DNA of 64,000 bases from Candidatus Spongiisociaceae bacterium (GCA_965202665.1 OZ241841.1:1735367-1799366); one strand, 5' to 3'; numbered from the stretch's first letter, positions 23,784 to 64,000 are shown. The notes: generated from the sequence alone by a model not told the origin. Translations and numbers: made by a program.

Positions 23784-23812
23784 TTGCCTAACGAACGTTC
23801 GTTCGCTAAAAT
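23784..23812 (+). promoter_or_regulatory. paaA promoter with overlapping PaaR-type palindromic operator
   Basis: -35 TTGCCT (23784-89), 17-nt spacer containing the perfect palindrome AACGAACGTTCGTT (23790-23803), -10 TAAAAT (23807-12), and ATG at 23821 (near-leaderless). The palindrome fits the CNAACGNNCGTTNG-type TetR/PaaR boxes reported for Thermus. Confidence 0.5.
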
Positions 23813-23820
23813 AAGACCGT

Positions 23821-37629: not shown

Positions 37630-37636
37630 GCTGCTA

Positions 37637-39715
37637 CTGCGATGGTGGAGCCGTCGGAGGATATGGCAACCCCCTCCCCGAAACCATGGTTGAAGGGGTT
37701 GGTAGCAGACGGTTCTAGGGTGGCGTCTAGCGACCAAGTGCCATTGCTTTGACGGGTGTAGACATAGACTTTTTTGAGTCCTTCTCGGCTTCCGACTACT
37801 ACCGTGTCGCCGCTGATGTCCACATCCCACCCGAAGTAACCATTTTGCATGATGGTTGGGGGGGTGAGTTTGACGATGGCGCTGGCGGCGGTGTTCATCC
37901 CGTTGGGGTAGATGTACACCATCCCCGCCCTAGTACGCGTCACGTCATCTGCAGCATCGTTGTTGCCCATGTCGTCTACAACGCTTTCGTAAGAGGCTCC
38001 GACGACTATTACTCCGTTGTCGGCTGCTACGGCTTGCCCGTAGCGGGCGATGGCCCCGGCCCTGGCCCCGTCGGGGTGGTTGAGGCTGGGCCATTCCTCC
38101 TGCAAAGCGAAGGTGCTGACTTTGCCCGCTTCGTCCTGGTAGGCGGTTACTTTCAGGTGAGCCCCCGCCGGGTCGGCGTCCTCCGCTAAGGGTTTCTCGA
38201 ACTCGGCCATCACGGTGGGTCCGTCGAAGTTGGAGAACTGGTCGTTGGCGTCGTATTTGACCAGCATCAGTTTCTCCTCAGCGGCTACTACCAGCTGGTC
38301 GTTGTCGGGGTCTTTCACCAGGATGCGGCCGGTGAACGGCGCCCCGTCCGGTTCCTCCACCCAGTAATGGTAGACACGAGCCTCATGGGAGTTCAGATCA
38401 ATGTCGACGCCGTCGTTTTCAGGCCGATCTTCGCTACCGTCCGCTACTCCCACCACCTCGCTGAAGGTGGCCCAGATGGTTTCGATGACGCTGTCGGTGC
38501 TGTCGTAGTTGTAACCGAGGTTGGCCCGGCCGTCCCGTCCGGTGGTCCGCGTATACCGGCCCGTACCCGACAGCGTACGCTTCCCGCCGGATGAGCCGAC
38601 GGTGATACCGGCGGGCGCGGTGGAACCCACCCCCAAAATAACGGAGCAATCCGCGTCCTCATCTTTGGCCTTGGTGCACAAAGAGTCGGAAAGGAAACTG
38701 ATCCGTTTGCCGCGTACTGGGTCGCCGAACTGGTCGGTCAGTGTGGCCGTGACCGTGTTGCCGGCCCCTTGGCCTTCGTCCGACGCCAGAACGAACTCGT
38801 TGCGGGATGTGACCGTCAGCGTGGCCGGCCTCGGCGCTTCGTCCGACCAGCTGTAGGTGTCGGAGGAGAAGTCGCTTCCGTCCTCGTTTTTGAACGGCAA
38901 CCCGGCCGGCGGGTTGGTCAACGTCAACGTCACCGTCGCGCTGTCGCCGGTGTTGGTGCTGGGATCGGTTTGGGTGAATTCCAAAACGATTTTCCCGTCG
39001 GCGTCGGTCGTCATGCTGTTGGTGGAGGACGTGGTGTTGTCCCCCACCGTAGTGCTCTGCGCGACGGTTACCCGTTTGCCTTTGTCGGCTACGGCTTTGT
39101 CGTCCGGGTCGGCGATTTGGATGGTGACGGTGACGGTTTCCCCGAACTTGGAGCGGGTCTGCCCTTCCTCCAAGTTGTCGGTCACCAAAGTTTGGGTGGC
39201 CGCTTTGGAGAACCCGACGGTCAGTTGGGCGCGGGTGGTGTCATCGGAGTCGAACTTGTCGCCCCGGTCGCCGGTCCAGGCCCACACCGTCGCGTCCGCG
39301 TCCGTGATCTGCAAGGACAAATCGGTGAGGTCCCCCGACGCGTCGGTGGTGCTGTCCCCCAAATCCACCTCGCACGCCGTCTGCCCCACTTGCCCCACCC
39401 GATTCACATTCGCCGTAACGCACGCCCCGTCGTCCCCGAACGCCTCATCCGCGTCAGCGGAACGGAACACGTCCACCGACGCGTCCTGCACCGGCTGGAA
39501 GTTCACATCCCGCACCGACACAATCAACGGCACGCCCTGCGCCCCCAGCACCATATCCTGCTCGCTCTGAATCGACACCCCCGCCGGACGGGCGATGGTA
39601 TGCGCAAACGCCCGGGTGATGAACGACGCCGAATACATCGGAGCGAAATCAATGTCCTCCTCCTTACCATGCGTCCCCACCGCACCCGGAGGAGAAACCC
39701 CCAACCGAACATCAA
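37637..39715 (-). pseudogene. surface-protein cassette fragment (Ig-like middle plus start of propeller); lacks signal peptide/SLH region and is 3'-truncated by IS481
   Basis: Near-identical to the 45026-48565 protein from GVSPPGAVGTHG through ...SLNHPDGA. The SLH-domain segment is deleted (MYSA|SFITRAFAHT). The far 5' end is fused to an IS481 fragment. Confidence 0.65.
38100..39700. repeat. about 1.6 kb near-exact repeat (direct copy at ~46358-47958; inverted copy within 40801-42415)
   Basis: Identical translated ORFs appear on the track: 38857-39570(+) = 47115-47828(+) = 41538-42251(-), and 38367-38594 = 46625-46852. Confidence 0.8.
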
Positions 39716-40060
39716 GCGGGCGCACCGCCACCGGCAGGAGAGGAAGACCGGTCTGGGAAGACCGGTCATCGCGGCCGCGCGTTCCCCGGGCGTGCGCCAC
39801 CCCAGCGACGGAAGAAGAACAGGTGTTACGCACGCGGCGGGCCTTCCCGAGCGGGTTGCCGACGTCGATGGGCAGCCGGGGAGCTGGCTATCAACCGCAT
39901 CCTCCGCCGCGATGGGAAACGCTACTCTGCAGGAATCCGATCAGCTGACCGGCGAGCCGCTCAGAACCAGTCCCGGGCGGATGGTGCGGCATGAGCGCGG
40001 CAGGCCGGGAAAGTCGCCGCACAGGAACGTTGACAACCGTCTTGTTTTGAACCCCTTCAC
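39715..40060 (+). mobile_element. 5'-truncated, degenerate IS481 transposase-gene fragment
   Basis: About 80% nucleotide identity to 36758-37100 of the intact IS481 (..CGCCGCTACCGGGAAGAAGG..). Frames are broken. Confidence 0.5.
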
Positions 40061-40632: not shown

Positions 40633-40660
40633 TTGACAAGTTTTTTGGGGACGCTAATGT
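40633..40660 (+). promoter_or_regulatory. candidate sigma-70-type promoter of the only intact surface-protein gene
   Basis: TTGACA (40633-38), 16-nt spacer, TAATGT (40655-60). RBS GGAAGGA lies 10 nt before the ATG at 40750. Confidence 0.4.
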
Positions 40661-40749
40661 ATCGCGTGTTGAGGCGTAGGCCCCGGTATTGCCCTCCGGT
40701 AGCCAGCGTGTTAGGCAAACGAAAAATGGGCTTGGAAGGAGTAGTCGTG

Positions 40750-43700
40750 ATGGCGAAAGTGTCGGGTCGGGTTTGGATGGTGGGTCTTTTAGTGTTGGGT
40801 TTGGTGGTGAGTTTGTTGGGGGTTTCTCCTCCGGGTGCGGTGGGGACGCATGGGGAGGAGGAGGACATTGATTTCGCTCCCATGTATTCGGCGTGCGTGG
40901 GGCGGGCGACGGATTCGGCCGGTTTTGAGGACACGGCGGGCATCGGCGCGGAGGAGGCGATTGATTGCTTGTTCCATTATGGGATCACGAAAGGCCGGTC
41001 GGAGACCATGTACGCTCCGTCGGAGTCGGTGCTGCGGTGGCAGATGGCCCTGTTTTTGGCCCGGGCGTCGATGGCGGCGGGGATCGTGTTGGACAACCCG
41101 GCTGAGGATCAGGGGTTCACGGACATCAGCGCGGTGTCGGAAGAGGCCCAAAACGCCATCAACGGTTTAGCCAAAGAAGGGATCATGCCCGGCACGTCCG
41201 CGACGACGTTCAGCCCGAATTCGTCAGTGAACCGGGGTTCCATGGCGATGCTGCTGGACGCGTTCCTTTCCAAGGCCACTCCGGGGACGGGGGCGTTCGG
41301 GGAAGCGACGGAGAAGTACGCGGATGTAAAAGCCGACAACTTCAACGTGTTCACGGATGTGAACACGGTGTCGCTGAACACCTACAACGCCATATACCGC
41401 ATTTACGAGCTGGGGGTCACGAAAGGGGTGGCGGAACATCAGTTCAACCCGGCCGGGCTGGTAACGCGGGGGCAGATGGCGTCGTTCATCACCCGGGCGT
41501 TTGCTCATACCATCGCCCGTCCGGCGGGGGTGTCGATTCAGAGCGAGCAGGATATGGTGCTGGGGGCGCAGGGCGTGCCGTTGATTGTGTCGGTGCGGGA
41601 TGTGAACTTCCAGCCGGTGCAGGACGCGTCGGTGGACGTGTTCCGTTCCGCTGACGCGGATGAGGCGTTCGGGGACGACGGGGCGTGCGTTACGGCGAAT
41701 GTGAATCGGGTGGGGCAAGTGGGGCAGACGGCGTGCGAGGTGGATTTGGGGGACAGCACCACCGACGCGTCGGGGGACCTCACCGATTTGTCCTTGCAGA
41801 TCACGGACGCGGACGCGACGGTGTGGGCCTGGACCGGCGACCGGGGCGACAAGTTCGACTCCGATGACACCACCCGCGCCCAACTGACCGTCGGGTTCTC
41901 CAAAGCGGCCACCCAAACTTTGGTGACCGACAACTTGGAGGAAGGGCAGACCCGCTCCAAGTTCGGGGAAACCGTCACCGTCACCATCCAAATCGCCGAC
42001 CCGGACGACAAAGCCGTAGCCGACAAAGGCAAACGGGTAACCGTCGCGCAGAGCACTACGGTGGGGGACAACACCACGTCCTCCACCAACAGCATGACGA
42101 CCGACGCCGACGGGAAAATCGTTTTGGAATTCACCCAAACCGATCCCAGCACCAACACCGGCGACAGCGCGACGGTGACGTTGACGTTGACCAACCCGCC
42201 GGCCGGGTTGCCGTTCAAAAACGAGGACGGAAGCGACTTCTCCTCCGACACCTACAGCTGGTCGGACGAAGCGCCGAGGCCGGCCACGCTGACGGTCACA
42301 TCCCGCAACGAGTTCGTTCTGGCGTCGGACGAAGGCCAAGGGGCCGGCAACACGGTCACGGCCACACTGACCGACCAGTTCGGCGACCCAGTACGCGGCA
42401 AACGGATCACGTTCACCTCCGACACTCTGTGCGTGAAGAAGCAACCGACTGACGCGGAGTGCGTCACGCACGGCGTGGGCGCCAACAACTACATGCGCAC
42501 CACCGGACGGGACGGCCGGGCCAACCTCGGTTACAACTACGACAACACGAACAGCGTCATCGAGGCCATCCGGGCCACCTACACCTACGTCGGCACCGAG
42601 GGAGTGCGGGGAGTGGTCGACACCACCGACCCCCTTCCCATGGGCGACCCGAAGGACGAGACCGTGTTGACGTCTGAGCCCGTTCACCATTACTGGGTGG
42701 AGGAACCGACCGGGGACCCGTTCACCGGGCGCATCTTGGTGAAAGACCCCGACAACGACCAGGTGGTGGTAGCCGCTGAAGAGAAACTGATGCTGGTCAA
42801 ATACGACGGGAACGACCAGTTCAACCTCGAGTCGGGAACCACCATCTTCTCCGAGTTCGAGAAACTGCTGGAAGAAAACGCCGACCCGGCGGGAGCCCAC
42901 CTGAAGGTAACCTCCTACGAAGACGCCGCCGCCGACGTTAGCGTCTTCACCGTACAAGAAGAATGGCCCGGCCTAGACCACCCCGCAGGCGCCAACGGCC
43001 GCTTCAACTACCCAATCGTGGTAGCCGACAACGGCATAATCGTCGTCGGGCATTACCTTGAGACGGTGACGTCGGGCGGCACCCAGATGCCACATGCGGG
43101 CGCAGTTTACATTTATCCGAACGGGATGGACACCGCCGCGAACAATATCGTGAAGCTGACCGCCCCCACTCCTTTCGCTTGCGGGTATTTCGGATATGAT
43201 GTGGACATCACCGACAACACGGTGGTAGTCGGCAACGCGTTCGTCGGCATCGACTCCGGTAGGTTGCGTCCGGTGGTGGGATTGGGCGAGGGTCAAACTT
43301 GCGCTATGTCCTCCTCCTATGAGAAAAAGGTCTACGTGTACACCCGCACAGATAGCGGATGGCCCATCGACGCCACATTTACCAGCGTCGATGCCCAGAA
43401 CAACACTGGTTTCGGGGAGGGGGTGGCTATCTCCTCCGATGGTTCCACCATCGCGGTGGTAGGACCCGGCTCGAATAATAATGGGGCCGTGTTCGTGTTC
43501 GAGAAGCCCCAAACCGGAGGCTGGGTGGACAACACCACCGCCGGTCAAGGCCGTCTGAGGGGCGGTGGCGGCGATGGGGTCGGATGGATTCGAACCGAAC
43601 GGTCTGTCGCTATCTCCGGGGACGGTTCGGTAATCGCCGCTGGCGGTTGCAACAACGAAGGCAGCACCGGCACGTGCGGAGGGTGGCTGTATGTGTACGA

Positions 43701-44328
43701 GAAGGACCCCACCGCCAGCTGGGACGGGGTCACCAAAGCCGATGGCGACGCCCGCTTCCTGGCCTATGAGGGAACGGGTGATCCTAATGTCGCTACCGAT
43801 TACGGTCAAGGGCGGCAATCTAGACATGAGTTCGCCAAGTACGTGGCGCTCTCCGACGACGGAACCGTGTTGGTCGCCTCCGGGCACTACCGAGCTGAGG
43901 CTGAAAAGCCGGGGGAAGTGTACGTGTGGAACAAACCGGAAACAGGCGGCTGGAGAGTGCATCACATCGATCGGCGGCTACCCGGCATGACCCCCAACGT
44001 TGGCTTCAAGTTGAAGGTCTCGTCTCCCCGTAACAGCGACGTGTTCGGACAATACATCGCCGTAACCGGCGACGGTTCGGAGATAGCCGCTTCCCGCCAC
44101 TACCGGCAGGAAGGCACCTTCCGGGGTTCGGTGGTGACCTTCAAGCGTCCCGCCGACGGCGCCTGGGCAAACGACAGCACACCCGACGACGAGTACTTGG
44201 GTCCCTATGTCCGAGCCCACCTGGGGTGGCAGACCACCTACGACAAATCCAACAGTGATCTATACACCGCGGTGTCCGCGGCCAATGATATGGAAAGCCC
44301 GCTTTCCATCTTCAAGATCACCCGATAA
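40750..44328 (+). CDS. large S-layer-homology (3x SLH) domain surface protein with bacterial Ig-like (Big) domains and C-terminal FG-GAP beta-propeller repeats; intact expression copy
   Basis: Signal peptide MAKVSGRVWMVGLLVLGLVV. Three SLH repeats (FxD...AIxxL...GIxxG...F.P...V.RGQMA.FL.RA). Ig-like T/V-rich domains. FGEGVAISSDGSTIAV-type FG-GAP repeats. 1192 aa. Confidence 0.8.
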   Translation: MAKVSGRVWMVGLLVLGLVVSLLGVSPPGAVGTHGEEEDIDFAPMYSACVGRATDSAGFEDTAGIGAEEAIDCLFHYGITKGRSETMYAPSESVLRWQMALFLARASMAAGIVLDNPAEDQGFTDISAVSEEAQNAINGLAKEGIMPGTSATTFSPNSSVNRGSMAMLLDAFLSKATPGTGAFGEATEKYADVKADNFNVFTDVNTVSLNTYNAIYRIYELGVTKGVAEHQFNPAGLVTRGQMASFITRAFAHTIARPAGVSIQSEQDMVLGAQGVPLIVSVRDVNFQPVQDASVDVFRSADADEAFGDDGACVTANVNRVGQVGQTACEVDLGDSTTDASGDLTDLSLQITDADATVWAWTGDRGDKFDSDDTTRAQLTVGFSKAATQTLVTDNLEEGQTRSKFGETVTVTIQIADPDDKAVADKGKRVTVAQSTTVGDNTTSSTNSMTTDADGKIVLEFTQTDPSTNTGDSATVTLTLTNPPAGLPFKNEDGSDFSSDTYSWSDEAPRPATLTVTSRNEFVLASDEGQGAGNTVTATLTDQFGDPVRGKRITFTSDTLCVKKQPTDAECVTHGVGANNYMRTTGRDGRANLGYNYDNTNSVIEAIRATYTYVGTEGVRGVVDTTDPLPMGDPKDETVLTSEPVHHYWVEEPTGDPFTGRILVKDPDNDQVVVAAEEKLMLVKYDGNDQFNLESGTTIFSEFEKLLEENADPAGAHLKVTSYEDAAADVSVFTVQEEWPGLDHPAGANGRFNYPIVVADNGIIVVGHYLETVTSGGTQMPHAGAVYIYPNGMDTAANNIVKLTAPTPFACGYFGYDVDITDNTVVVGNAFVGIDSGRLRPVVGLGEGQTCAMSSSYEKKVYVYTRTDSGWPIDATFTSVDAQNNTGFGEGVAISSDGSTIAVVGPGSNNNGAVFVFEKPQTGGWVDNTTAGQGRLRGGGGDGVGWIRTERSVAISGDGSVIAAGGCNNEGSTGTCGGWLYVYEKDPTASWDGVTKADGDARFLAYEGTGDPNVATDYGQGRQSRHEFAKYVALSDDGTVLVASGHYRAEAEKPGEVYVWNKPETGGWRVHHIDRRLPGMTPNVGFKLKVSSPRNSDVFGQYIAVTGDGSEIAASRHYRQEGTFRGSVVTFKRPADGAWANDSTPDDEYLGPYVRAHLGWQTTYDKSNSDLYTAVSAANDMESPLSIFKITR
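40801..42415. repeat. about 1.6 kb segment identical, in inverted orientation, to 46954-48568 (5' conserved region of the surface-protein genes)
   Basis: Track ORFs 40835-41170(+) = 48196-48531(-) and 41109-41381(-) = 47985-48257(+) are identical at the amino-acid level. Confidence 0.8.
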
Positions 44329-45025: not shown

Positions 45026-48000
45026 TTATCGGGTGATCTGGTAAACAGTCAGCAACGTGCCGGCTTCGACAGACTCTCGTATCCCGGAGTACAGGGTGCC
45101 GGAGGTCTTGTCGTAGGTGGTCGCCCATCCCATACGGGCGTTAACCCGGGGACCCAAGAACTCTTCGTCCGGTGTGCTGTCGGAGGCCCATCCAGTAGCG
45201 GGCTTCGTGAATGTCACCACCGAACCCCGGAAGTCGCCTTCCTGCCGATAATGACGACCGGACGCGATCTCCGAACCGTCGCCTTTGATGGCAATGTACT
45301 GGCCGAACACATCCTGGTTTCTGGGGGACGACACGGTCAGATCAAATCCTGTTGTCGCTTCCTCCGAATCCGCTTGAGTGTCAACGTGCCAACTTTCCCA
45401 GCTCGTGCCGGGCCTGACGTACACACGTATCGTCCCGGGCACATTTCTAGGACTAGTCTGACCCTGGTAGTGGTTGGAGACGACCAGGGTTGTCCCGTCA
45501 TCGGTGAGAGCCAAGTACTTGGCAAACTGAGTTCCGCTACCACCCATTCCGCGATTGCGGATGCGAGCACCGTCGGTTCCTGAACCTCCGTCGGACTGGT
45601 CCGCCCAGCCGCCAGCAGGCTTCTTATACACGTATATCCATCCTCCGGTATTGCCAGCGGCGATCGTCTCCCCATCCCCGGAGATAGCAATGGCCCGTTC
45701 GTTGCTATAGCCATTCCCGATTCTCAGTTCAGGTTCATCAGCGTGAGTGGCATCGGCAGCCCAGCCCGTGCCGGGCTCTTCATATACCACTATCCTTCCT
45801 TCGTTGCCCTGGTCGTCAGCCCCGATCACCGCAATGGTGGAACCGTCGTCGGATATGGCAACTCCCTCTCCGAACCCCTGGCCGAAATCGGCATTCTCAG
45901 TACTCGGATTCGGGGACAATATCTTAGTAGTGGTGGTCGGCCAACCAGCACTCTCCTTTTCATAAATGTAGACCTTCCGCAACCCTCTTTGCCCCGCGGG
46001 CAACTGATGGTGGTATCGGGTTCCGACGACGATGGTGTCGCCTGCGATGTCCACGTCGTGTCCGAAGAAGCCGTTGGCTACGATATCCGTGGCTGGGGGG
46101 GTAAGTTTGACGATGTTGCCGGCGGCGGTGTTCATCCCGTTGGGGTAGATGTACACCATCCCCGCGTTAGTACGCGTCACGTCATCAGTTTCCATGCAAG
46201 TGGCCAGAGCGTCGCGGCAGGAGCCCATTTGCACCACAATGGTTTCTCTGGGGGCTCCGACGACTATTACTCCGTTGTCGGCTGCTACCGCCTCCCCAAA
46301 TCTGGCGGCGGCTCCGTCTTCTGCCCCGTCGGGGTGGTTGAGGCTGGGCCATTCCTCCTGCAAAGCGAAGGTGCTGACTTTGCCCGCTTCGTCCTGGTAG
46401 GCGGTTACTTTCAGGTGAGCCCCCGCCGGGTCGGCGTCCTCCGCTAAGGGTTTCTCGAACTCGGCCATCACGGTGGGTCCGTCGAAGTTGGAGAACTGGT
46501 CGTTGGCGTCGTATTTGACCAGCATCAGTTTCTCCTCAGCGGCTACTACCAGCTGGTCGTTGTCGGGGTCTTTCACCAGGATGCGGCCGGTGAACGGCGC
46601 CCCGTCCGGTTCCTCCACCCAGTAATGGTAGACACGAGCCTCATGGGAGTTCAGATCAATGTCGACGCCGTCGTTTTCAGGCCGATCTTCGCTACCGTCC
46701 GCTACTCCCACCACCTCGCTGAAGGTGGCCCAGATGGTTTCGATGACGCTGTCGGTGCTGTCGTAGTTGTAACCGAGGTTGGCCCGGCCGTCCCGTCCGG
46801 TGGTCCGCGTATACCGGCCCGTACCCGACAGCGTACGCTTCCCGCCGGATGAGCCGACGGTGATACCGGCGGGCGCGGTGGAACCCACCCCCAAAATAAC
46901 GGAGCAATCCGCGTCCTCATCTTTGGCCTTGGTGCACAAAGAGTCGGAAAGGAAACTGATCCGTTTGCCGCGTACTGGGTCGCCGAACTGGTCGGTCAGT
47001 GTGGCCGTGACCGTGTTGCCGGCCCCTTGGCCTTCGTCCGACGCCAGAACGAACTCGTTGCGGGATGTGACCGTCAGCGTGGCCGGCCTCGGCGCTTCGT
47101 CCGACCAGCTGTAGGTGTCGGAGGAGAAGTCGCTTCCGTCCTCGTTTTTGAACGGCAACCCGGCCGGCGGGTTGGTCAACGTCAACGTCACCGTCGCGCT
47201 GTCGCCGGTGTTGGTGCTGGGATCGGTTTGGGTGAATTCCAAAACGATTTTCCCGTCGGCGTCGGTCGTCATGCTGTTGGTGGAGGACGTGGTGTTGTCC
47301 CCCACCGTAGTGCTCTGCGCGACGGTTACCCGTTTGCCTTTGTCGGCTACGGCTTTGTCGTCCGGGTCGGCGATTTGGATGGTGACGGTGACGGTTTCCC
47401 CGAACTTGGAGCGGGTCTGCCCTTCCTCCAAGTTGTCGGTCACCAAAGTTTGGGTGGCCGCTTTGGAGAACCCGACGGTCAGTTGGGCGCGGGTGGTGTC
47501 ATCGGAGTCGAACTTGTCGCCCCGGTCGCCGGTCCAGGCCCACACCGTCGCGTCCGCGTCCGTGATCTGCAAGGACAAATCGGTGAGGTCCCCCGACGCG
47601 TCGGTGGTGCTGTCCCCCAAATCCACCTCGCACGCCGTCTGCCCCACTTGCCCCACCCGATTCACATTCGCCGTAACGCACGCCCCGTCGTCCCCGAACG
47701 CCTCATCCGCGTCAGCGGAACGGAACACGTCCACCGACGCGTCCTGCACCGGCTGGAAGTTCACATCCCGCACCGACACAATCAACGGCACGCCCTGCGC
47801 CCCCAGCACCATATCCTGCTCGCTCTGAATCGACACCCCCGCCGGACGGGCGATGGTATGAGCAAACGCCCGGGTGATGAACGACGCCATCTGCCCCCGC
47901 GTTACCAGCCCGGCCGGGTTGAACTGATGTTCCGCCACCCCTTTCGTGACCCCCAGCTCGTAAATGCGGTATATGGCGTTGTAGGTGTTCAGCGACACCG

Positions 48001-48570
48001 TGTTCACATCCGTGAACACGTTGAAGTTGTCGGCTTTTACATCCGCGTACTTCTCCGTCGCTTCCCCGAACGCCCCCGTCCCCGGAGTGGCCTTGGAAAG
48101 GAACGCGTCCAGCAGCATCGCCATGGAACCCCGGTTCACTGACGAATTCGGGCTGAACGTCGTCGCGGACGTGCCGGGCATGATCCCTTCTTTGGCTAAA
48201 CCGTTGATGGCGTTTTGGGCCTCTTCCGACACCGCGCTGATGTCCGTGAACCCCTGATCCTCAGCCGGGTTGTCCAACACGATCCCCGCCGCCATCGACG
48301 CCCGGGCCAAAAACAGGGCCATCTGCCACCGCAGCACCGACTCCGACGGAGCGTACATGGTCTCCGACCGGCCTTTCGTGATCCCATAATGGAACAAGCA
48401 ATCAATCGCCTCCTCCGCGCCGATGCCCGCCGTGTCCTCAAAACCGGCCGAATCCGTCGCCCGCCCCACGCACGCCGAATACATGGGAGCGAAATCAATG
48501 TCCTCCTCCTCCCCATGCGTCCCCACCGCACCCGGAGGAGAAACCCCCAACAAACTCACCACCAAACCGG
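45026..48570 (-). CDS. SLH-domain surface-protein paralog with a distinct C-terminal propeller variant; 5' end (signal peptide/start) disrupted by a poly-G tract and IS481 fragment
   Basis: Identical to the 40750 protein from VVSLLGVSPPGAVGTHG through ..PVRGKRI, then divergent. Ends ..LLTVYQITR. There is no start codon, RBS or promoter; the sequence runs into GGGGGGGGGGGGGCGGCGGGGGGGGGGGGG at 48571-48601. Confidence 0.65.
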
Positions 48571-58283: not shown

Positions 58284-58312
58284 AAGCCTTGTATAATGCT
58301 ATTAAGCAACGT
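58284..58312 (+). promoter_or_regulatory. candidate promoter (extended -10 TGTATAAT) for the 58327 gene
   Basis: cttGTATAATgct at ~58288-58296; RBS GGAAGGGA before the ATG at 58327. Confidence 0.3.
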
Positions 58313-58326
58313 GAGCGGAAGGGACG

Positions 58327-59067
58327 ATGATGAATTCGGTCGCTGAAAGGTTGGCGCCGTTTTTGCCCGGTCCGGATGAGTTCTATCCGCCGGGCGGCTG
58401 GCGGCGCGTGGCATGGACCTGGTGCTGGAATCAGGGGAAACAGGTGGAGTTCCCGCAGTTGGAACCACAGACGGAGACGTTGCGCCGCGATTTACAGGCG
58501 CACCTGGTAGGGCTGGGTTCATCGGAAAAACGGGCGATGGCGGTTACCAAGTGGGCGATCTTCGAGTACATGAAAGATCGGCGGGGCATGTGGGAACACC
58601 GGCACGAGCCTCCGCCCGTCAACCCCATGCGTCCCTATCCTGTTTTCTTAGTCACCGATTTACCTCATCTGATGCGGAAGCCAAACGGGCGGGGCCGCTA
58701 TCGATCGCTAGTCCAATTTTCCAAAGACTGGGCCGTATATCCTCTGCGACGGAAAGAAATGATGGCCGACCCTCCACCGCCGGACACCGAATTCGGGATA
58801 GCGGTCAGCATAGCCGCCGTGGTACACGCCTTATGCGACCTAGACGGCCTCCCCCCGCCGAACTGGGTGTTCGCCCACCGCTCCCCGGAACCAATGAAAC
58901 CATGGGGAGTATCACCATCTCTTAAACCGGAGTTCACCAGTAAAACTCCTCCAGCTTGCCTCTATCACAACGTTTACTTCGATTACCACTTTATCGAAGG
59001 CCCCCTGTGGATCAGCCTCCCCCCAACCGCTTGTCGAAACAACCCAGAGGAGGCCCTAAGCCGATGA
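58327..59067 (+). CDS. hypothetical protein (first gene of lower-GC island)
   Basis: 246 aa; GC about 55%, against a 70% flank; translationally coupled to the next gene. Confidence 0.4.
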   Translation: MMNSVAERLAPFLPGPDEFYPPGGWRRVAWTWCWNQGKQVEFPQLEPQTETLRRDLQAHLVGLGSSEKRAMAVTKWAIFEYMKDRRGMWEHRHEPPPVNPMRPYPVFLVTDLPHLMRKPNGRGRYRSLVQFSKDWAVYPLRRKEMMADPPPPDTEFGIAVSIAAVVHALCDLDGLPPPNWVFAHRSPEPMKPWGVSPSLKPEFTSKTPPACLYHNVYFDYHFIEGPLWISLPPTACRNNPEEALSR

Positions 59068-59720
59068 CCAGCAATCAAAAAGAACTAAACGGCCCGCTCA
59101 TATGGCGCCTACTGGAAAAGGTGGACTCCAACCTACGAGGCCACTTCACCGAGGTGCTTATTGTCGGTGGCGCCGCACTGTCGATACATTGGATGATACA
59201 ACAGACGCATGAGAGAGGAACCTTCGACGTTGATGTGGTGCATCTCCTACCTCAACCTTCCGAACGCACTACCCGATCCGTTGACTCATTAACTATCCCG
59301 CTTCCCTATCATCTTGACCAAGCTGTACAAGCAGTAGCCCGCCGAGAGGATTTGGGCGTAAGATGGCTCAACAATGATGCCAGAGGTTCCATACCACCTA
59401 TCTCCGATCTGCAACAAGAGATGCTATTTCGAGGAAAAAATCTTCATGTATACCGGCCGAGCCTACCAGTCTTGTTGGCTATGAAATTGACTGCCCACCG
59501 CCTAGATAAAGACTTAGAAGATACAATAAAACTAGCAATAGAAACAGGTATCACCGAAAAAGATGAAATGCTTAAACTACTTGAAGATACATATGGACCA
59601 GGACACATAAATTCTGATATTAGAGAGTTTATAAACAAAGCAACCAACCGTATACCTTCCCGATATAAACCAGAAAATCAAATCTCTTCCCGCGGAGACA
59701 ATAGCGACCTAGATCTATAA
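59064..59720 (+). CDS. putative nucleotidyltransferase of the AbiEii/MNT-like family
   Basis: VLIVGGAALSIHWMIQQTHERGTFDVDVV fits the GG.AL...R.T.D.D minimal-nucleotidyltransferase pattern of AbiEii/DUF1814 proteins. ATGA overlap with the upstream gene. Lower GC. Confidence 0.35.
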   Translation: MTSNQKELNGPLIWRLLEKVDSNLRGHFTEVLIVGGAALSIHWMIQQTHERGTFDVDVVHLLPQPSERTTRSVDSLTIPLPYHLDQAVQAVARREDLGVRWLNNDARGSIPPISDLQQEMLFRGKNLHVYRPSLPVLLAMKLTAHRLDKDLEDTIKLAIETGITEKDEMLKLLEDTYGPGHINSDIREFINKATNRIPSRYKPENQISSRGDNSDLDL

Positions 59721-59901
59721 ACCTTCTTTAACTCTTCAATGCGACGACCGATGTTCTGTCTGTCTGGTCAGCAGGAACAGGCAAAACCAGGTGTCCGTAC
59801 AGGCTCATACAGGCCTGTTTCTGATGGTGCCCTGAACTGGACACTAGGGAAATCGGAGACTGACAGGCAAAATCCAGGCCTGGACAGGCCTGTTCCAGCC
59901 C

Positions 59902-60108
59902 CTATCCGTCAGGTCGCCCTTCCCCGGCCAAACGGGCCAAGTGAGATCTGTACACCTGCTCCATATTGGCCCAAAGCCGGGCGGGTATGTCCGTGGCGCG
60001 TTCCAACCTGATAGCGGTTTCCGCGTTTATAGGATCCTCCCCGTTTATTAGTTGGCTTATATGTTTTTCGGACAGTCCGGTATGGCGAGCCAAGTCCGCC
60101 CGGCTCAT
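59902..60108 (-). CDS. XRE/HigA-family HTH antitoxin-like protein
   Basis: LARHTGLSEKHISQLINGEDPINAETAIRLERATDIPARLWANMEQVY is typical of the HigA/VapI HTH_XRE domain. Probable start at MSRADL (60108). Confidence 0.55.
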   Translation of the reverse strand: MSRADLARHTGLSEKHISQLINGEDPINAETAIRLERATDIPARLWANMEQVYRSHLARLAGEGRPDG

Positions 60109-60329
60109 AGAGCGCTCTTCGAGGGGACAACCTGAGCCCAATCAATCACCTTCCCAAAATAAAAAGGGCAAAACTGCTGGCGGTGGCGCGGGTTTGAGGA
60201 GTTTTTTTCGGCGCGAACAACCAGGGAGAAAGAGCACTGCCCGGCCCCGTTCCCCGACTTGCTTCCGCAACCGCCTTTTACCGCCCGCCCCGCACTTTCG
60301 GCTCCGCCGTCCAGTGTTTGGCGAACCAC
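60105..60329 (-). CDS. hypothetical small protein translationally coupled upstream of the HigA-like gene (candidate toxin partner)
   Basis: Its stop overlaps the HigA-like ATG. No recognizable RelE/HigB motifs, so the call is weak. Confidence 0.25.
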   Translation of the reverse strand: MVRQTLDGGAESAGRAVKGGCGSKSGNGAGQCSFSLVVRAEKNSSNPRHRQQFCPFYFGKVIDWAQVVPSKSAL

Positions 60330-63195
60330 GCCGCGGTCTTCTCCCGGTGCTTGGCGGGGACGCCCAGGATGTCGGCGGCGGCCAGATCCAGTTTCCTCCG
60401 GTTGTCGTCGCAGTCCGCGTAAACCGCTGGCTCCAACTCCATCCCGAACAGATCGTCGCGCCGCTCCAAGTAGGGTTCAGCGCGTGCGGCGAGTTTGGGG
60501 TCCGTGAAGTTGGGGCAGGGGATGCGGCGTATGTCTCCAATCTGTGTCCGGGTGCGTCCGGTGTGCTGACGGGAGCCCACCGCCCAGTGGTTGACGAACC
60601 CGAAGATGCTGTTCGCCCACACCGCAAACGCGAAGCGGGTTATCTCCGACCCGCCCCGCAACGGTGCCCAGACACTGCCCCCCAGCACCGGCTCGGCGGT
60701 AACGGCGGTCAAGATTTTTTGAGATGTCCAAGACATGTTTCGCTGATAGAACAGGTCGGTCTTGCGGGCGATTTCCCGCGCAGTCTTGTCCCTCCGATAA
60801 ATCTCCCCATAGTGTGTGGGTTCGGTCAGGATAGTTACCTTGCCGCCGCCGTCGGCGGCCCACAAAGAGAGATGGGTCGTTTCCCTGCCCAACTGTCCGG
60901 GGATTCTTTCATGTATGGTAAAAGCCCCGATGGGCTCGCGGCCAACTAGATGTCCAATGAGGTGGTGAGTGGGCCCGACCTCTTCGAACAACTCTCCGAT
61001 GGTCGTCATAGGAAACGCAACCAGACGTATCCCTTCCTTACTCACGACACCCGTTATCAGGTTGTGAGCGTCCGGGTAAAACCCCATCAAACTCTCCATC
61101 CCCACCCCATACCAAGGGGAACCCGGAGAGGCTGGAGGAGCGGCGTAAAAAGAACCTACCTGGTCCTCGCCGACTATCAGCGGGCCGAAGTCCCCGGGCT
61201 TCGCTTTATCCAGCACACCTACCATCGCCCGCGCTATCTCAGCGCCCGCGTTGGCGGAGGCAAGTGGGGCGTCTATATGAACGTATCCGACGCCTTCCCG
61301 CCCAGAGTTTCCCTTACGGGCGAACAATGTCATCTCCCCCATGTTGGTGTCGGCGCTTATAGACCCATCCCCTCCGAAAGCGGCGGCTATCACATCCCGG
61401 TAACACTCCTCGAACATTGCCCGCATCTTTCTGAACGACCCTGCCGCGGCGGCGGTAAGCGGGAGTATCAGCCCCACCTTTCCCCCGTCTTTTATTTTGC
61501 GGTCGGCTATGGCCGCGAACGCGGTGCTCATGCCCGCCTTCTTGTCCCGGCAGGTTCCTTTGCTGAGACGGGCGTCCCGCTTTAGCAACAGCATTCTGTC
61601 CGAAACAGTTATACCCGGTAGGTCGTAGGCCTTATGCCCACCTCTAGTTCCTGAATAGGGGGGGTTCATCAGCACCGCGTCGAAAGATTTATCTTCGGCG
61701 CTCACCCTGTTTATATCCCCGCCCTCAACGGGCTGGGAACCTCTGAGCTGGGAGAAGTCGTAGGTGAGCAGATGCTGTTGGGAGGAGTCTTTGTCGAGCA
61801 GTTCTATGGAACCGCAACGCACATCGTCCGTACCCGCCGGGGCGGTTTTAGTCTTTCCCAGTTTCATCCCGCCGATGTTGGTGTCGTGGTAGGCGGTTTC
61901 CGGTTGCAGGCCGACTATCCCGGCGGCGGTGAGGTGGACGGCTATCGGGTTGATGTCCAACCCGCACAACCCGCTCTCCATCATCCGCCGGTGGAACTCC
62001 CCCATGTCCGGGGGGGGGGGGGGGGCTCGGCGTCGGCGAGCTTTCTCAGCCGCCGATATCCGGCGCGGAGGAGTGCCCCCGTCCCGCAAGCGAAGTCGGC
62101 TATCCGCCACCGCCCGGGGTCGGAGGGGAGCCCGGCGCGGTCGGGGAGGACGGCGTGCGCCAAAAACTCGGCGTTCTCCGGTCTCGTGTAAAAAGCCGCC
62201 GATTTTTTCCGCTCGCCGCCGTCCATCACCCTGGCGAACACCTCCCCTCCGATGTTGGCGGTCTTCCCCAGCAACTCGCCCTCCACCGCGGCAACCGCTT
62301 TATCCAGGTTGGCGAAGACGCCCCGGTAGTCGGGGGAGGACATCACCTGCGGATAGCATTCTACGGCCACATCGAAGATGGAGCGGTAGTTCTCCTCCAA
62401 CACTAACTTCCAGGCCTCCTTCACTTTGCGGCCGTCCAGTCCCCCCTGGGTGCGGCAGGCGTCGACCGACTTGTAGGGTTTCCCGGCACGGGACAACTCG
62501 TTGAGGATGAGTAGCGAATCGAACCAGACGACGCACGCCACCCGCAGCCCCGCCTCCGGGTTGCCCGGATAGCCCATCCTCGCGGAGATGCGCTCCACCT
62601 CTCCGGGGTGTTTGCGGAGTGCCCCTCTCAGCGCGGCGGCGGCGGCCGAAACGTGGAACGCCACCGCCACCCCCGCCTTGGTTATTACCGAAACATCGGC
62701 GGAGGAGTTCTCCACGCTGGACGCAAAGTCGGAGATCGTTCCGGTCAGGTAACCGGCCTTCGGCCAAACTACCGTCCCCCCGCCCCTGGCTTTGGTGATG
62801 AACTTCCATCTGACCTCAGCGCCCTTCAAAAACTCGGCTTCCATTTCGCTCCGAGGCCAATCTTTGGCCTCCTGGGGGTAGCGCACCGCAATCCCCTTGC
62901 GGACATACTCGCCGTTGCTCCGGCTCGGCTTATCAGAAAGCGGTGCCACCCCCAGTTTCTTCTTGGCGTCCTCCACCGGGTCGTCGGCGACGTCGCTCTC
63001 CTTGCACTCCACCAGCATCGGCGGGTGGGCGGGGAGCGTCAGCAGCACATCCGGTTTTATCTGCCTCCCTTCGAACATGTCGCCAGCTTTGCGGTCGTCC
63101 GCCACGACATCGGCGGGATCCCACCCGGACACCCGGAGCAGGGCGTCTCGGAAGCTGACGTTGATGTACGTCTCGGCGGCCATCAGGAAGAGCAC
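60278..63195 (-). CDS. MmeI-like Type IIG/IIL restriction-modification enzyme (N-terminal PD-ExK endonuclease fused to N6-adenine methyltransferase and TRD); apparent frameshift at poly-G tract
   Basis: N-terminal D...PDVLLTLPAHPPMLVECKE (D-x-ExK nuclease motif). Methyltransferase motif X AAFYTRPE, motif I DFACGTGALL and motif IV VLMNPPY. The two ORFs (61981-63195 and 60278-62110) are joined by a run of Pro codons spanning the 62011-62026 C/G homopolymer. Confidence 0.65.
62011..62026. repeat. poly-G homopolymer (probable sequencing artefact causing apparent frameshift)
   Basis: 16 consecutive G residues inside the methyltransferase gene. Confidence 0.65.
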
Positions 63196-64000
63196 TGGGG
63201 GTCGGGGAGTTGCGCGGCCAGGTTGTGGAGTGACTGAGCCGCCTCATTGTCGCCCCTGCCTCTCGGCGGCGCGGATGTTGGCCTCGATGGCATGCTGGGT
63301 AGATACCTGCTCGTAGCCTCGGCCGCTCTCGCGTCCGATGCGCATCCCATCCTTAAGGCCGCTCCGGTAGCCCGCCCGTAGTCCTGGGCGGGGGGCGGTT
63401 TCCGGTTGTCTAACGGCGGCCTGGGCGGGTTGTCCGCTACTGGACGGGGGTCGTCCTCCGGTTCGTATTCGACGACCGGGAGTACGGCGGGGGTTACCCG
63501 AACGGCGGCGGTTAGGGGGAGAATAGTCCGGGAGTCGTAGAACCGAATCCAGACGCGGCGGGGATTTCCCGTTATCCGCAGTCCTCCGTTCAGCCGCCCG
63601 CCAAAGGCGGCGGGGGGTTCGTCCTGGGCGGCCTGTTCGGTAGCGACCGGAGTCGTCCGGGCGGGAGTCGCAGTCGCCATCGTTCGTCCTTTCCACCGGG
63701 GGCTATCCGGTGCGGGTTCGGCGACGGAGGGCTATCCCGCCGTCCGTTATCGCAGAACATTAGCCGATTCGGCGGCGGGGCGTAAAGTCGGCGTGGTTCG
63801 TCCGGAGTTGTCCGGGCTCGTAACACCGCCGCAGTCCGCCGATGCGGGCGGTTACCGGTTTCGTCCTATAACCCACCGAGTTCCCGCCGTCCGTTTTCTC
63901 GGGTTCGTTATTCGCCGCGGTATGTATATACCGGATTACAAGGCCGTTTGTACCGGGGTATCCAGTTGTCGTATTCGTCGGTGACGTAGGCGGCCGCGTC

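What the first reader, a model, noticed from the sequence alone, without database searches (positions are those of the whole stretch)
58300..64000. Lower-GC defense island: AbiEii-like nucleotidyltransferase pair, HigA-like antitoxin module and MmeI-like Type IIG restriction-modification enzyme
Downstream of the M23 peptidase, GC falls to about 55%. The genes are arranged as follows.
- A translationally coupled pair (58327-59067 and 59064-59720) in which the second gene has a minimal-nucleotidyltransferase signature (GGAALS...RGTFDVD), like AbiEii toxins.
- An XRE/HigA-type HTH gene (59902-60108) coupled to an unannotated small upstream ORF.
- A roughly 970-aa MmeI-family enzyme with a PD-ExK head (PDVLL...LVECKE), methyltransferase motifs X, I and IV (NPPY), and a C-terminal target-recognition domain.
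A CAGG/CCTG-rich patch at 59735-59900 lies inside the island. Clustering of TA and RM functions is typical of a defense island. The single-polypeptide MmeI-like enzyme also resembles BREX PglX, but BREX partners (brxA/B/C/L) are absent here, and the nuclease motif favours a stand-alone Type IIL enzyme.
Basis: partly seen in the sequence, partly recalled or inferred. Interest (0 to 1): 0.5.

Follow-up and report, generated by a model that had tools for sequence, protein, structure and literature searches.

The report
Phase-variable restriction enzyme gene, switched off
The large "restriction-modification" gene here is real, but a run of 16 C's breaks its reading frame; sister strains carry 11, 12 or 13 C's in an otherwise intact gene, so it looks like a slippage-driven on/off switch, a trick known from pathogens, here in what appears to be a sponge symbiont.

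Summary
The labels need correcting, and the main feature was missed.

**Restriction-modification (RM) gene, 60278-63195, minus strand**
- It is not one ~970-aa ORF. It is split into 404-aa and 610-aa frames at a C16 run (G16 on the + strand, 62010-62025).
- Four sister-strain alleles have C11 (intact, 966 aa), C13, C12 and C4-A-C11 (all out of frame).
- Each allele becomes one intact ORF once the run is reset. dN/dS is 0.24-0.32. The window differs from the C13 strain by a single substitution in 2901 nt.
- This fits a hypermutable contingency tract, not a pseudogene.
- The protein has a Type IIG architecture: PD..ExK head, gamma-class N6-adenine methyltransferase, and recognition domain.
- It belongs to an uncharacterised family that is abundant in sponge-symbiont genomes. 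It is not a member of the MmeI or PglX families.

**Gene pair, 58327-59720**
- It is a conserved, mobile cassette of a DUF6036-type nucleotidyltransferase and a novel partner.
- No AbiEii or AbiEi membership was shown.

**HTH gene**
- It is a solitary HigA-like gene with no toxin partner.

**Extent**
- The islet is about 5.4 kb and is flanked by core genes.

The parts
60278..63195 (-). Type IIG-like restriction-modification gene: PD..ExK nuclease head, helical connector, gamma-class N6-adenine methyltransferase, recognition domain and conserved C-terminus. In this allele it is frameshifted (OFF).
62010..62025 (-). Homopolymer tract, C16 on the coding strand. It encodes a poly-Pro loop between methyltransferase motif I and the next helix. 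It is in frame only when n = 2 mod 3 (11, 14, 17).
   Evidence: Alleles are C11 ON (L086/L087), C13 OFF (L088), C12 OFF (L093/L094) and C4-A-C11 OFF (L095/L096). More distant homologues have EALPPD/EPHPPD at this position. In the model it is the loop between H370-384 and H392-403.
61981..63195 (-). 5' reading frame (404 aa; 400 aa from the ATG at 63183). It covers the nuclease head (D49, E63, K65 in the 972-aa numbering), the helical domain, FYTRP and DFACGTG, and ends 10 codons after the tract.
   Evidence: P0125. Invariant D/E columns in 53-91 homologues.
60278..62110 (-). 3' reading frame (610-aa open frame; annotated elsewhere as 568 aa from MMESGL). It covers NPPY, the rest of the methyltransferase, the recognition domain and the C-terminus.
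   Evidence: P0004, 100% identity, NCBI contig of 2,768,541 bp.
59902..60141 (-). Solitary XRE/HigA-like helix-turn-helix gene (79 aa from TTG, 68 aa from the ATG at 60108), 137 nt downstream of the RM gene on the same strand.
   Evidence: Pfam HTH_3 1.8e-9. TIGR02607 HigA scores 40.6 bits, below the 47.7 cut-off. It is not next to RM homologues in other loci. Its 3' end differs in L086.
59735..59900 (.). Variable convergent intergenic spacer with three CAGGCCTG palindromes and a terminator-like hairpin (59892-59875, minus strand) just after the HTH stop.
   Evidence: Replaced by unrelated sequence in L086. Expanded with extra small ORFs and a second HTH_3 gene in L093/L095. No significant RNA fold.
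59064..59720 (+). 218-aa minimal nucleotidyltransferase of the DUF6036 type (hGG..DxD motif, KL..R..KDL helix). It is the candidate toxin or effector of a two-gene cassette.
   Evidence: DUF6036 E 2e-4, 21.6 bits against a 23.6 cut-off. All 3 family members hit it. It is 42% identical (1e-50) to the L092 212-aa protein, which carries an unmarked (E<=1e-5) DUF6036 hit. Only 3 clusters were found in 5.8 billion proteins.
58327..59067 (+). 246-aa partner gene, translationally coupled to the nucleotidyltransferase by an ATGA overlap. It has no known family. Its C-terminal ~120-aa domain is a widespread unnamed family.
   Evidence: No Pfam, PADLOC or NCBIfam hit. 113 homologues by phmmer, 17 of them full-length. 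The pair is conserved in L089, L092, L004, L006 and L090. Natural fusions are P0222 and P0279. The AF2 model has pLDDT 67, is all-helical and has no PDB match.
63183..63680 (-). Doubtful 165-aa ORF that overlaps the RM start. It is probably not a partner gene.
   Evidence: No family hit. Weak codon-position GC bias. Found only in the same species. L088 has a 44-codon in-frame deletion.

Best explanation
The core of the finding is a stand-alone, single-polypeptide Type IIG-like restriction-modification gene. Its expression is governed by a hypermutable poly-C tract inside the coding sequence.

**What is shown**
- The tract lies in a tolerant surface loop of the methyltransferase domain.
- Its length differs between near-identical strains: 11, 12, 13 and 16, plus an interrupted C4-A-C11 form.
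- Only lengths of 2 mod 3 give the full ~970-aa enzyme.
- The window carries an out-of-frame C16 allele.
- Everything else in the gene is intact and under purifying selection.

**What is inferred**
- Slipped-strand mispairing during replication changes the run length at high frequency.
- The symbiont population is therefore a mixture of ON cells and OFF cells.
  - ON cells methylate their own DNA at an unknown asymmetric site and cut unmodified incoming DNA.
  - OFF cells make neither activity.
- Loss of both activities together would be harmless (not tested), because nuclease, methylase and recognition domain are one chain.
- The mixture would trade phage and plasmid defence against self-restriction cost and DNA uptake. 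It may also shift the methylome, as a phasevarion does.

**Neighbouring genes**
- The 246-aa + 218-aa cassette is a separately mobile, translationally coupled pair.
- It consists of a DUF6036-type minimal nucleotidyltransferase and a novel partner.
- It most likely works like a toxin-antitoxin or abortive-infection pair. That is inferred from architecture only.
- The HTH gene is a lone XRE/HigA-like regulator.
For: **Frameshift and tract**
- The frameshift sits at C16, and the reading-frame arithmetic was checked.
- There are five alleles with the same or nearly the same flanks. The four sister alleles were each seen in both an ENA and a Logan assembly.
  - C16: OFF (window)
  - C11: ON, 966 aa
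  - C13: OFF
  - C12: OFF
  - C4-A-C11: OFF
- Window against the C13 strain shows 1 substitution in 2901 nt. Window against the C11 strain shows 6.
- All five alleles become intact 966-970-aa ORFs when only the tract is reset. dN/dS is 0.24-0.32 at dS 0.095-0.18.
- More distant homologues have EALPPD or EPHPPD at this position. The run therefore grew out of a Pro-rich linker.
- Long G/C runs are about 50-fold over expectation in the window.
- In related genomes the Type ISP gene next to the RM homologue has a run at a homologous site. It is G12 and intact (1604 aa) in L006, and G13 and split in L004.

**Enzyme class**
- Motifs are conserved.
- Pfam Eco57I is hit.
- The AF2 model is confident.
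- Fold matches are to BpuSI, DrdV, PglX, CamA and MmeI.
- Homologues stand alone in unrelated neighbourhoods.

**Precedent**
- Poly-G phase variation of the Type IIG enzyme Cj0031 in C. jejuni (PMC4889913).
Against: - No read-level data are available. Within-population heterogeneity and reversibility are not shown.
- Four of five consensus alleles are OFF. That is what neutral drift of the run would give (2/3 expected OFF), so selection for switching itself is unproven.
- The window assembly may miscount a 16-nt homopolymer. Its sequencing platform is unknown to me.
- The ENA and Logan assemblies of an allele may come from the same reads.
- Nuclease activity is inferred. The head domain has no sequence match in PDB or Pfam. 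The Lys of ExK is not conserved across the wider family, and the head was not searched as a separate fold.
- The recognition site is unknown.
Confidence: 0.72

Rival explanations
1. Homopolymer miscount. The window genome really has an in-frame run (for example C17 or C14), and the split is a sequencing or assembly error at a long homopolymer.
For: Long homopolymers are error-prone on several platforms (general knowledge). One extra C restores a 972-aa ORF. NCBI annotated the two halves separately (P0004, P0125).
Against: Even if the window count is wrong, four other alleles in independent sponge metagenomes differ by 1-5 nt with identical flanks. Each is reproduced in a second assembly. Consensus errors of that size in 11-13-nt runs are unlikely. 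The tract is therefore polymorphic whatever its true length here.
Confidence: 0.12
2. Decaying pseudogene. The RM gene was inactivated by a slippage mutation and is on its way out, and the run is merely where it broke.
For: Four of five consensus alleles are out of frame. The GC-poor islet is accessory DNA.
Against: No allele has any second lesion in 2.9 kb. dN/dS is 0.24-0.32 between alleles that are up to dS 0.18 apart. One allele is intact (P0122). The OFF alleles are out of frame at three different run lengths (16, 13, 12) plus an interrupted C4-A-C11 form, so they are not one inherited lesion.
Confidence: 0.06
3. The run is a tolerated slippery tract, not a switch. RNA-polymerase slippage or ribosomal frameshifting on the long run yields some full-length enzyme whatever the DNA length, so expression is constitutive but reduced.
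For: Transcriptional slippage on long homopolymers rescues frameshifted genes in insect endosymbionts (general knowledge, not tested here). Purifying selection persists although most alleles are nominally OFF.
Against: There is no transcript or protein evidence. Slippage at the DNA level demonstrably occurs, since five lengths are seen. The two mechanisms do not exclude each other.
Confidence: 0.08
4. The protein is a methyltransferase component of a larger defence system (BREX PglX-like or MADS mad2-like), or an orphan methylase, rather than a restriction enzyme.
Against: No PglX model was hit in PADLOC. No Brx or Mad partner genes appear in the window or in 10-kb flanks of syntenic and non-syntenic homologues. 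The N-terminal head has invariant D and E in an alpha-beta-beta-beta-alpha-beta core.
Confidence: 0.05

Closest known systems
Cj0031 (CjeNII-type), the phase-variable Type IIG RM enzyme of Campylobacter jejuni NCTC11168 (PMC4889913)
   Same: Nuclease and methyltransferase lie in one gene, and an intragenic G/C homopolymer puts the ORF in or out of frame. Both activities are therefore switched together. In Cj0031 phage restriction follows the phase.
   Different: Here the enzyme family is different, with only the Eco57I methylase core in common by Pfam. The run is longer (11-16 nt). The genome is 63-69% GC, where G/C runs are less exceptional in composition. The organism is probably a sponge-associated Acidimicrobiia rather than a low-GC pathogen. 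Switching and methylation have not been measured here.
BpuSI / Eco57I-type Type IIG enzymes (PDB 3S1S, PMC3185434)
   Same: The order of domains is the same: PD-x(n)-ExK head, helical connector, gamma-class N6-adenine methyltransferase, then a C-terminal recognition domain. It is the top Foldseek match (2e-16 over about 1095 columns). Pfam Eco57I is hit.
MmeI / DrdV Type IIL enzymes (PDB 5HR4, 7LO5)
   Different: No MmeI_N, hel, Mtase, TRD or C Pfam domains were hit. MmeI is absent from PDB sequence hits. CamA, Type I M subunits and PglX score higher. The similarity is in how it works, not in family membership.
AbiE (AbiEi/AbiEii) and MenAT nucleotidyltransferase toxin-antitoxin systems
   Same: Two overlapping genes, with the second encoding a minimal nucleotidyltransferase that has G[GS]..DxD and a KL..R..D helix. 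The cassette is mobile and turns up in different contexts.
   Different: The family hit is DUF6036, not AbiEii (PF08843). The upstream protein has no AbiEi domain and no demonstrable winged helix. Nothing is published on DUF6036 in the searched library. Toxicity has not been tested.

Membership tests
Type IIG (single-chain) restriction-modification enzymes | N-terminal PD-(D/E)xK nuclease domain in the same polypeptide | tested here: inconclusive
   P-D..x13..E-C-K is present. D and E are invariant in 91 homologues. The AF2 topology is alpha-beta-beta-beta-alpha-beta. However, K is not conserved family-wide, the head has no PDB or Pfam sequence match, and the head was not searched as a separate fold.
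Type IIG (single-chain) restriction-modification enzymes | Gamma-class N6-adenine methyltransferase motifs (FYTP, xxGxG, NPP[YF]) | tested here: met
Type IIG (single-chain) restriction-modification enzymes | One continuous ORF that includes the recognition domain, with no separate R, M or S partner | tested here: met
   Met for the family and for the sister allele P0122 (966 aa): homologues are single ORFs in unrelated contexts. In the window allele itself the ORF is split by the C16 tract.
Type IIG (single-chain) restriction-modification enzymes | Site-specific methylation and cleavage at a fixed distance | not testable with these tools
   This needs SMRT or nanopore methylome data, or the purified enzyme.
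MmeI family (Type IIL) | MmeI-specific domains (Pfam MmeI_N, MmeI_hel, MmeI_Mtase, MmeI_TRD, MmeI_C) | tested here: not met
BREX PglX/BrxX | PglX family profile and brxA/B/C/L (or pglZ) neighbours | tested here: not met
   There is no PglX model hit in PADLOC. No Brx genes appear in the window or in the flanks of L001-L005 and L086. Only local motif-I similarity to BrxX was found.
Simple-sequence-repeat contingency locus (phase-variable gene) | Long homopolymer inside the ORF whose length sets the frame | tested here: met
   The C16 tract lies at 62010-62025 and is ON only at n = 2 mod 3.
Simple-sequence-repeat contingency locus (phase-variable gene) | Tract-length polymorphism, with ON and OFF states, among otherwise near-identical strains | tested here: met
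   Lengths are C11 (ON) and C12, C13, C16 and C4-A-C11 (OFF). Only 1-6 substitutions per 2901 nt separate the closest alleles.
Simple-sequence-repeat contingency locus (phase-variable gene) | Gene otherwise intact and under purifying selection | tested here: met
   All five alleles have the tract as their single lesion. dN/dS is 0.24-0.32.
Simple-sequence-repeat contingency locus (phase-variable gene) | Reversible high-frequency switching within a clonal population | not testable with these tools
   This needs read-level tract-length spectra or culture, and no reads are available.
AbiE type IV toxin-antitoxin (AbiEi + AbiEii) | Toxin belongs to AbiEii/DUF1814 (PF08843) | tested here: not met
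   Only DUF6036 is hit (2e-4, below threshold, in all 3 members; the L092 orthologue hits it strongly). There is no AbiEii, PADLOC or NCBIfam hit.
AbiE type IV toxin-antitoxin (AbiEi + AbiEii) | Upstream antitoxin with an N-terminal winged helix-turn-helix (AbiEi) | tested here: inconclusive
   There is no family hit. The AF2 model is of low confidence (pLDDT 67), is all-helical and has no PDB match with E<1.
AbiE type IV toxin-antitoxin (AbiEi + AbiEii) | Overlapping bicistronic pair that moves as a unit | tested here: met
   The genes overlap by ATGA. The pair recurs in L089, L092, L004, L006 and L090 in different contexts. Fusion proteins P0222 and P0279 exist.
HigBA toxin-antitoxin | HigA-family HTH antitoxin | tested here: inconclusive
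   TIGR02607 scores 40.6 bits against a 47.7 cut-off. Pfam HTH_3 is clear.
HigBA toxin-antitoxin | Adjacent HigB/RelE-type toxin gene | tested here: not met
   Only 137 nt lie between the RM stop and the HTH start. The overlapping 74-codon ORF has no family hit. Downstream there is only the spacer.

The most novel reading that the evidence does not exclude
Long G/C homopolymer tracts could be a general contingency mechanism in sponge symbionts. Unrelated symbiont phyla would use them to switch defence genes (this Type IIG family, Type ISP enzymes, a STAND-like ATPase) and surface genes (an inverse autotransporter, Big-domain and S-layer-type proteins) on and off. That would make phase variation, so far studied in animal pathogens, a routine feature of an ancient mutualistic microbiome. 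The ~970-aa enzyme family would then be a sponge-symbiont-centred expansion of a new Type IIG lineage.
Probability: 0.35. Interest if true: 0.65.

Novelty: new member of a known kind. Interest (0 to 1): 0.5.

Why it matters
- **Annotation.** Phase-variable RM systems are known almost only from host-adapted pathogens such as Campylobacter, Helicobacter, Neisseria and Haemophilus. Here the same logic appears in a high-GC, uncultured, probably sponge-associated actinobacterium, in an enzyme family with no characterised member. Annotation pipelines record such genes as two fragments or as pseudogenes, so the defence repertoires of symbiont MAGs may be systematically miscounted.
- **Testability.** The ON/OFF alleles in public sponge metagenomes give a direct, culture-free test. 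The m6A motif should be present in the C11 population and absent in the C13 and C16 populations. That would also reveal the recognition site of a new Type IIG family.
- **Gene pair.** The DUF6036 pair adds a candidate toxin-antitoxin or abortive-infection module for a domain of unknown function.

Tried and rejected
- **MmeI membership:** rejected.
- **BREX or MADS component:** rejected for lack of partner genes and because the hits are only local.
- **Conserved partner genes of the RM enzyme:** the 165-aa upstream ORF is species-restricted, has a 44-codon indel and is unrelated to the upstream ORFs of L001/L002. The HTH is not found beside other homologues.
- **HigB toxin upstream of the HTH:** there is no room and no family hit.
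- **Structured RNA or repeat element in the CAGG/CCTG patch:** not significant (z -1.05). There is no Rfam hit in the window apart from PYLIS_3 elsewhere, and no tRNA or integrase marks the islet.
- **Winged helix in the 246-aa protein:** the AF2 model is too weak and has no fold match.
- **Sequence detection of the nuclease head:** PDB and Pfam profile searches were empty or marginal.
- **Fetching the source genome beyond the window:** P0004 is not on record in the contig index, and the source genome was not among the genome-contig loci. Syntenic sister strains L086, L088, L093 and L095 were used instead.
- **Literature on DUF6036, or on phase variation in sponge symbionts:** nothing was found.

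Full report
**1. What is in the sequence**

GC falls from 0.69 in the core flank (51000-58228) to 0.52 over the gene pair, 0.58 over the HTH and 0.63 over the large gene. The finding region as a whole is 0.598.
- 58327-59067 (+)
- 59064-59720 (+), overlapping the first by ATGA
- an HTH gene at 59902-60141 (-), with an alternative ATG at 60108
- a large minus-strand gene

The large gene is not one ORF. It consists of frame A, 63195..61981 (404 aa, ending ...ADAEPPPPPRTWGSSTGG*), and frame B, 62110..60278 (610 aa). The two frames overlap at a run of 16 C on the coding strand (G16 at 62010-62025 on the + strand). One more C, or two fewer, gives a continuous 972-aa protein. Runs of 13 or more G occur at 10 positions in the window against 0.21 expected from shuffles.

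**2. The tract is polymorphic and the gene is otherwise intact**

The 90%-identity cluster of the 3' half contains an intact 966-aa protein (P0122) as well as split versions from other assemblies. The DNA was fetched for four syntenic sister-strain loci. Each allele is seen in an ENA assembly and a Logan assembly.

| Source | Tract | State |
|---|---|---|
| Window | C16 | OFF |
| L086 / L087 | C11 | ON (966 aa) |
| L088 | C13 | OFF |
| L093 / L094 | C12, flank AGAAATG | OFF |
| L095 / L096 | CCCC-A-C11, flank AGACATG | OFF |

- For the window-type flank the gene is in frame only when n = 2 mod 3.
- The window coding sequence differs from L088 by 1 substitution in 2901 nt, and from L086 by 6 (4 synonymous, 2 not).
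- When only the tract is reset, all five alleles translate as single 966-970-aa ORFs with no other stop or frameshift.
- Between the more distant alleles dS is 0.095-0.18 and dN/dS is 0.24-0.32.
- The tract therefore mutates orders of magnitude faster than the rest of the gene, and the full-length protein has stayed under purifying selection. That combination is the signature of a contingency locus. It argues against a pseudogene.
- More distant homologues (52-68% identical) read EALPPD, EPHPPD or DGTPLD at this point. L095 still has the interrupting A. The run therefore arose by homogenisation and expansion of a Pro-rich linker.
- In the structure model the tract forms the loop between helices 370-384 and 392-403, just after motif I.

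**3. What the protein is**

Sequence searches
- The reconstructed protein has at least 167 homologues, almost all single ORFs of 950-1010 aa.
- Invariant or near-invariant columns in 53-91 sequences give P-D (D49), E63 (E-C-K in this clade), FYT(R)P, DFACGTG, NPP(Y/F) and a conserved C-terminus. D49 and E63 are numbered on the 972-aa reconstruction; they are D45 and E59 in the 966-aa protein P0122.
- Pfam finds only the Eco57I methylase core (8e-8) and none of the MmeI domain families.
- PADLOC gives only local, weak hits: mad2 at 2e-6, and Type IIG models at E>0.008.
- NCBIfam gives nothing useful.
- A profile search of PDB sequences finds BrxX/PglX (1e-6, motif I only), DrdV, LlaBIII, CamA and TaqI, but not MmeI.

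Structure
- An AlphaFold2 model of the intact sister allele with a 91-sequence alignment is confident (pLDDT 89.5, pTM 0.91).
- Foldseek ranks the Type IIG enzyme BpuSI first (2e-16, about 1095 alignment columns), then BrxX/PglX, CamA and DrdV.
- The first ~100 residues are predicted as alpha-beta-beta-beta-alpha-beta. D sits ahead of strand 2 and E-x-K in strand 3, which is the PD-(D/E)xK core.

Caveats
- The head has no sequence match in PDB or Pfam.
- The Lys is replaced by E, S or A in distant members.
- I could not search the head alone by fold.

Genomic context
- Homologues sit alone in unrelated neighbourhoods (L001, L003, L004, L005).

Conclusion for this section: the protein has a single-chain Type IIG-like architecture and belongs to an uncharacterised family. 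It works like BpuSI, MmeI and DrdV, but it is not a member of the MmeI family and is not a BREX methylase.

**4. Where the family lives**

A scan of one genome per species found 561 relatives. The best 80 are almost all MAGs with names typical of sponge symbionts:
- Candidatus Spongiisociaceae (56% identity)
- Candidatus Poriferisodalis
- Poribacteria
- many Dehalococcoidia and Chloroflexota
- Acidimicrobiia and Gammaproteobacteria

Some genomes carry two copies. Spongiisociaceae belongs to the Acidimicrobiia. The sister-strain contigs come from the PANK22 set of metagenome assemblies. The source organism is therefore probably a sponge-associated actinobacterium. This is inferred; the source record itself was not retrieved.

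**5. The gene pair at 58327-59720**

The 218-aa protein
- It has the minimal nucleotidyltransferase pattern (VGGAAL...RGTFDVDVV, then LLAMKLTAHRLDKDL).
- It hits only Pfam DUF6036 (E 2e-4, 21.6 bits against a 23.6 cut-off), as do both other family members.
- It is 42% identical (1e-50) to a 212-aa protein of a Spongiisociaceae chromosome. That protein has a solid DUF6036 hit and is preceded by a 262-aa homologue of the 246-aa protein.
- It is very rare: 3 clusters among 5.8 billion proteins.
- There are no AbiEii, PADLOC, NCBIfam or PDB sequence hits.

The 246-aa protein
- It has no family hit.
- Exhaustive phmmer finds 113 relatives. Most are 120-170-aa proteins that match only its C-terminal domain (residues ~100-225). 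None of the ten scanned has a Pfam domain over that region.

The pair as a unit
- It recurs in other contexts. In L089 it follows obg and proB.
- In L004 and L006 it appears as two tandem partner genes plus the nucleotidyltransferase, 3.4 kb from their RM homologue.
- In L090 a C-domain-only partner is followed by an uncalled nucleotidyltransferase homologue.
- Fusions exist: P0222 (partner domain + DUF6036) and P0279.

Partner structure
- The AF2 model of the partner is weak (pLDDT 67) and all-helical.
- It has no PDB match (best E 1.2), so a winged helix is not shown.

Reading: this is a conserved, mobile, translationally coupled two-gene module built around a DUF6036 nucleotidyltransferase. 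It plausibly acts as a toxin-antitoxin or abortive-infection pair by analogy with AbiE and MenAT. Membership of those families was not demonstrated, and toxicity is untested.

**6. The HTH and the spacer**

The HTH
- It is a clear HTH_3 protein (1.8e-9). It resembles HigA but scores below the NCBIfam cut-off (40.6 against 47.7 bits).
- It lies 137 nt downstream of the RM stop on the same strand.
- The only ORF ending at its ATG begins inside the RM gene and has no family hit. There is therefore no HigB.
- It is absent from the vicinity of RM homologues outside this species.

The spacer, 59735-59900
- It lies between convergent genes.
- It carries three CAGGCCTG palindromes. That motif has 10 sites in the window against 1.5 expected, and four of the others lie in the second low-GC patch at 49950-50908.
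- One terminator-like hairpin lies right after the HTH stop.
- It does not fold better than shuffles.
- It is replaced by unrelated DNA in L086.
- In L093 and L095 it is expanded to about 1.3 kb, with small ORFs and a second HTH_3 gene.

**7. Extent of the 'island'**

- In the syntenic strains the RM gene is preceded only by the doubtful 165-aa ORF. After that come Mrp/ApbC, an Fe-S assembly protein, RidA, an aldehyde dehydrogenase, a small methyltransferase and a glutamine-synthetase-like gene.
- The left side is the M23 peptidase, an MBL-fold protein, NUDIX, FxsA and SelA/SelB.
- The window contains no tRNA gene, and no integrase was seen in or beside the islet.
- The accessory segment is thus about 5.4 kb (58300-63700), inserted between core genes, with an internally variable middle.
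- The recurrence of the nucleotidyltransferase cassette, the RM homologue and a Type ISP enzyme within a few kb in L004 and L006 gives some support to a local defence hot spot.

**8. Mechanism, rivals and novelty**

Best explanation (confidence about 0.7): slipped-strand mispairing at the poly-C run switches the single-chain RM enzyme between ON (n = 2 mod 3) and OFF. The window shows an OFF allele.
- Shown: tract polymorphism, frame arithmetic, intactness, purifying selection, and enzyme architecture.
- Inferred: reversibility within a population, actual restriction and methylation, and the ecological pay-off.

Rivals:
- A homopolymer miscount in this assembly. This is possible for the exact number, but it does not remove the polymorphism.
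- Pseudogenisation. dN/dS and the absence of second lesions argue against it.
- Constitutive leaky expression by transcriptional or translational slippage. This is untested and compatible with the main reading.
- A non-restricting methylase of a larger system. No partner genes were found.

Precedent and literature:
- I found no report of it for sponge symbionts.
- I found nothing on DUF6036.

Verdict: a new member of a known kind, of moderate interest. A broader and more novel possibility is widespread G/C-tract contingency loci in sponge symbionts. It rests on side observations and needs a proper census.

Noticed in passing
window 37359-48604: Three paralogous large surface-protein genes carry SLH, FG-GAP and Ig-like domains: 37359..39833 (-), 40633..44328 (+, 1231 aa, intact signal peptide) and 45026..48565 (-, 1179 aa, signal peptide missing). 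They share a 1635-nt, 100%-identical inverted repeat over their 5' parts (40798-42432 / 46934-48568) and a 955-nt, 99% repeat with the third copy. The layout resembles cassette switching by inversion, as in Campylobacter fetus S-layer (sap) variation. Only one copy has a promoter-proximal start.
   Followed up: partly
window 48569-48601: A double tract, G14-CGGC-G15, begins exactly where the perfect 1635-nt repeat arm ends. It replaces the first half of the signal peptide of the 45026..48565 copy. Just upstream lies a fragment of an IS481-type (rve) transposase, and a full copy sits at 36651-37598. Whether this is a junction scar, a switch or an assembly problem is unexplained.
   Followed up: partly
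window 22936-22948: A G13 run lies immediately after the stop codon (minus strand) of a short-chain dehydrogenase gene (22949..23833). All four long runs in the window are G on the + strand.
   Followed up: no
L004 11797-11809 and 15183-15195; L006 16997-17008: The Type ISP restriction enzyme next to the RM homologue has a homopolymer at a homologous site. It is G12 and one intact 1604-aa ORF in L006. It is G13 and frameshifted in L004, which has a second G13 that splits the gene again into 291 + 1160 + 210 aa. This is a second RM gene of the lineage with an ON/OFF tract.
   Followed up: yes
L023 4523-4536; L007 2179-2192; L008 1820-1832; L016 5936-5954; L012 13465-14990: G/C runs of 11-19 nt recur in the fetched symbiont MAG loci from other phyla (Gammaproteobacteria, Dehalococcoidia, Longimicrobiales). 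One splits an inverse-autotransporter gene (L023, G14). One lies near the 5' end of a Big_12 surface-protein gene (L007). A C19 run sits at the start of an AAA/STAND-like ATPase gene (L016). In a 2-Mb gammaproteobacterium (L012), runs lie inside the open frames of GshA and UbiE.
   Followed up: partly
L001 10992-11003; L002 3514-3525; L021 10667-10678: A 12-nt G/C run flanked by AT-rich sequence sits about 100 nt downstream of the stop of the RM homologue in unrelated loci. Its role is unknown.
   Followed up: no
window 49250-51100: A second low-GC patch (0.44-0.54) has only short minus-strand ORFs (163, 74 and 110 aa). It is rich in CTGG/CAGG words and holds four of the window's ten CAGGCCTG palindromes. 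It lies between the IS481 fragment and the next core genes.
   Followed up: partly
window 21506-21605: Rfam PYLIS_3 (the pyrrolysine insertion element of mttB) scores 60.9 bits inside an open reading frame on the same strand (20384-22021) that I did not characterise. This may be an MttB-superfamily paralogue rather than true pyrrolysine use.
   Followed up: no
window 63472-63604: L088 has a 132-nt (44-codon) in-frame deletion inside the doubtful 165-aa ORF upstream of the RM gene.
   Followed up: yes
L093 9072-10548; L095 7878-9612: In two sister strains the spacer between the HTH and the nucleotidyltransferase pair is about 1.3 kb. It carries extra small ORFs and a second HTH_3 gene, so the middle of the islet is a hot spot for small-gene turnover.
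   Followed up: no
L090 5383-6462: A separate pair of a 192-aa protein and an AbiEii-type (weak hit) protein lies 2 kb from the C-domain-only partner P0163. Bona fide AbiE-like pairs therefore coexist with the DUF6036 pairs in these genomes.
   Followed up: no
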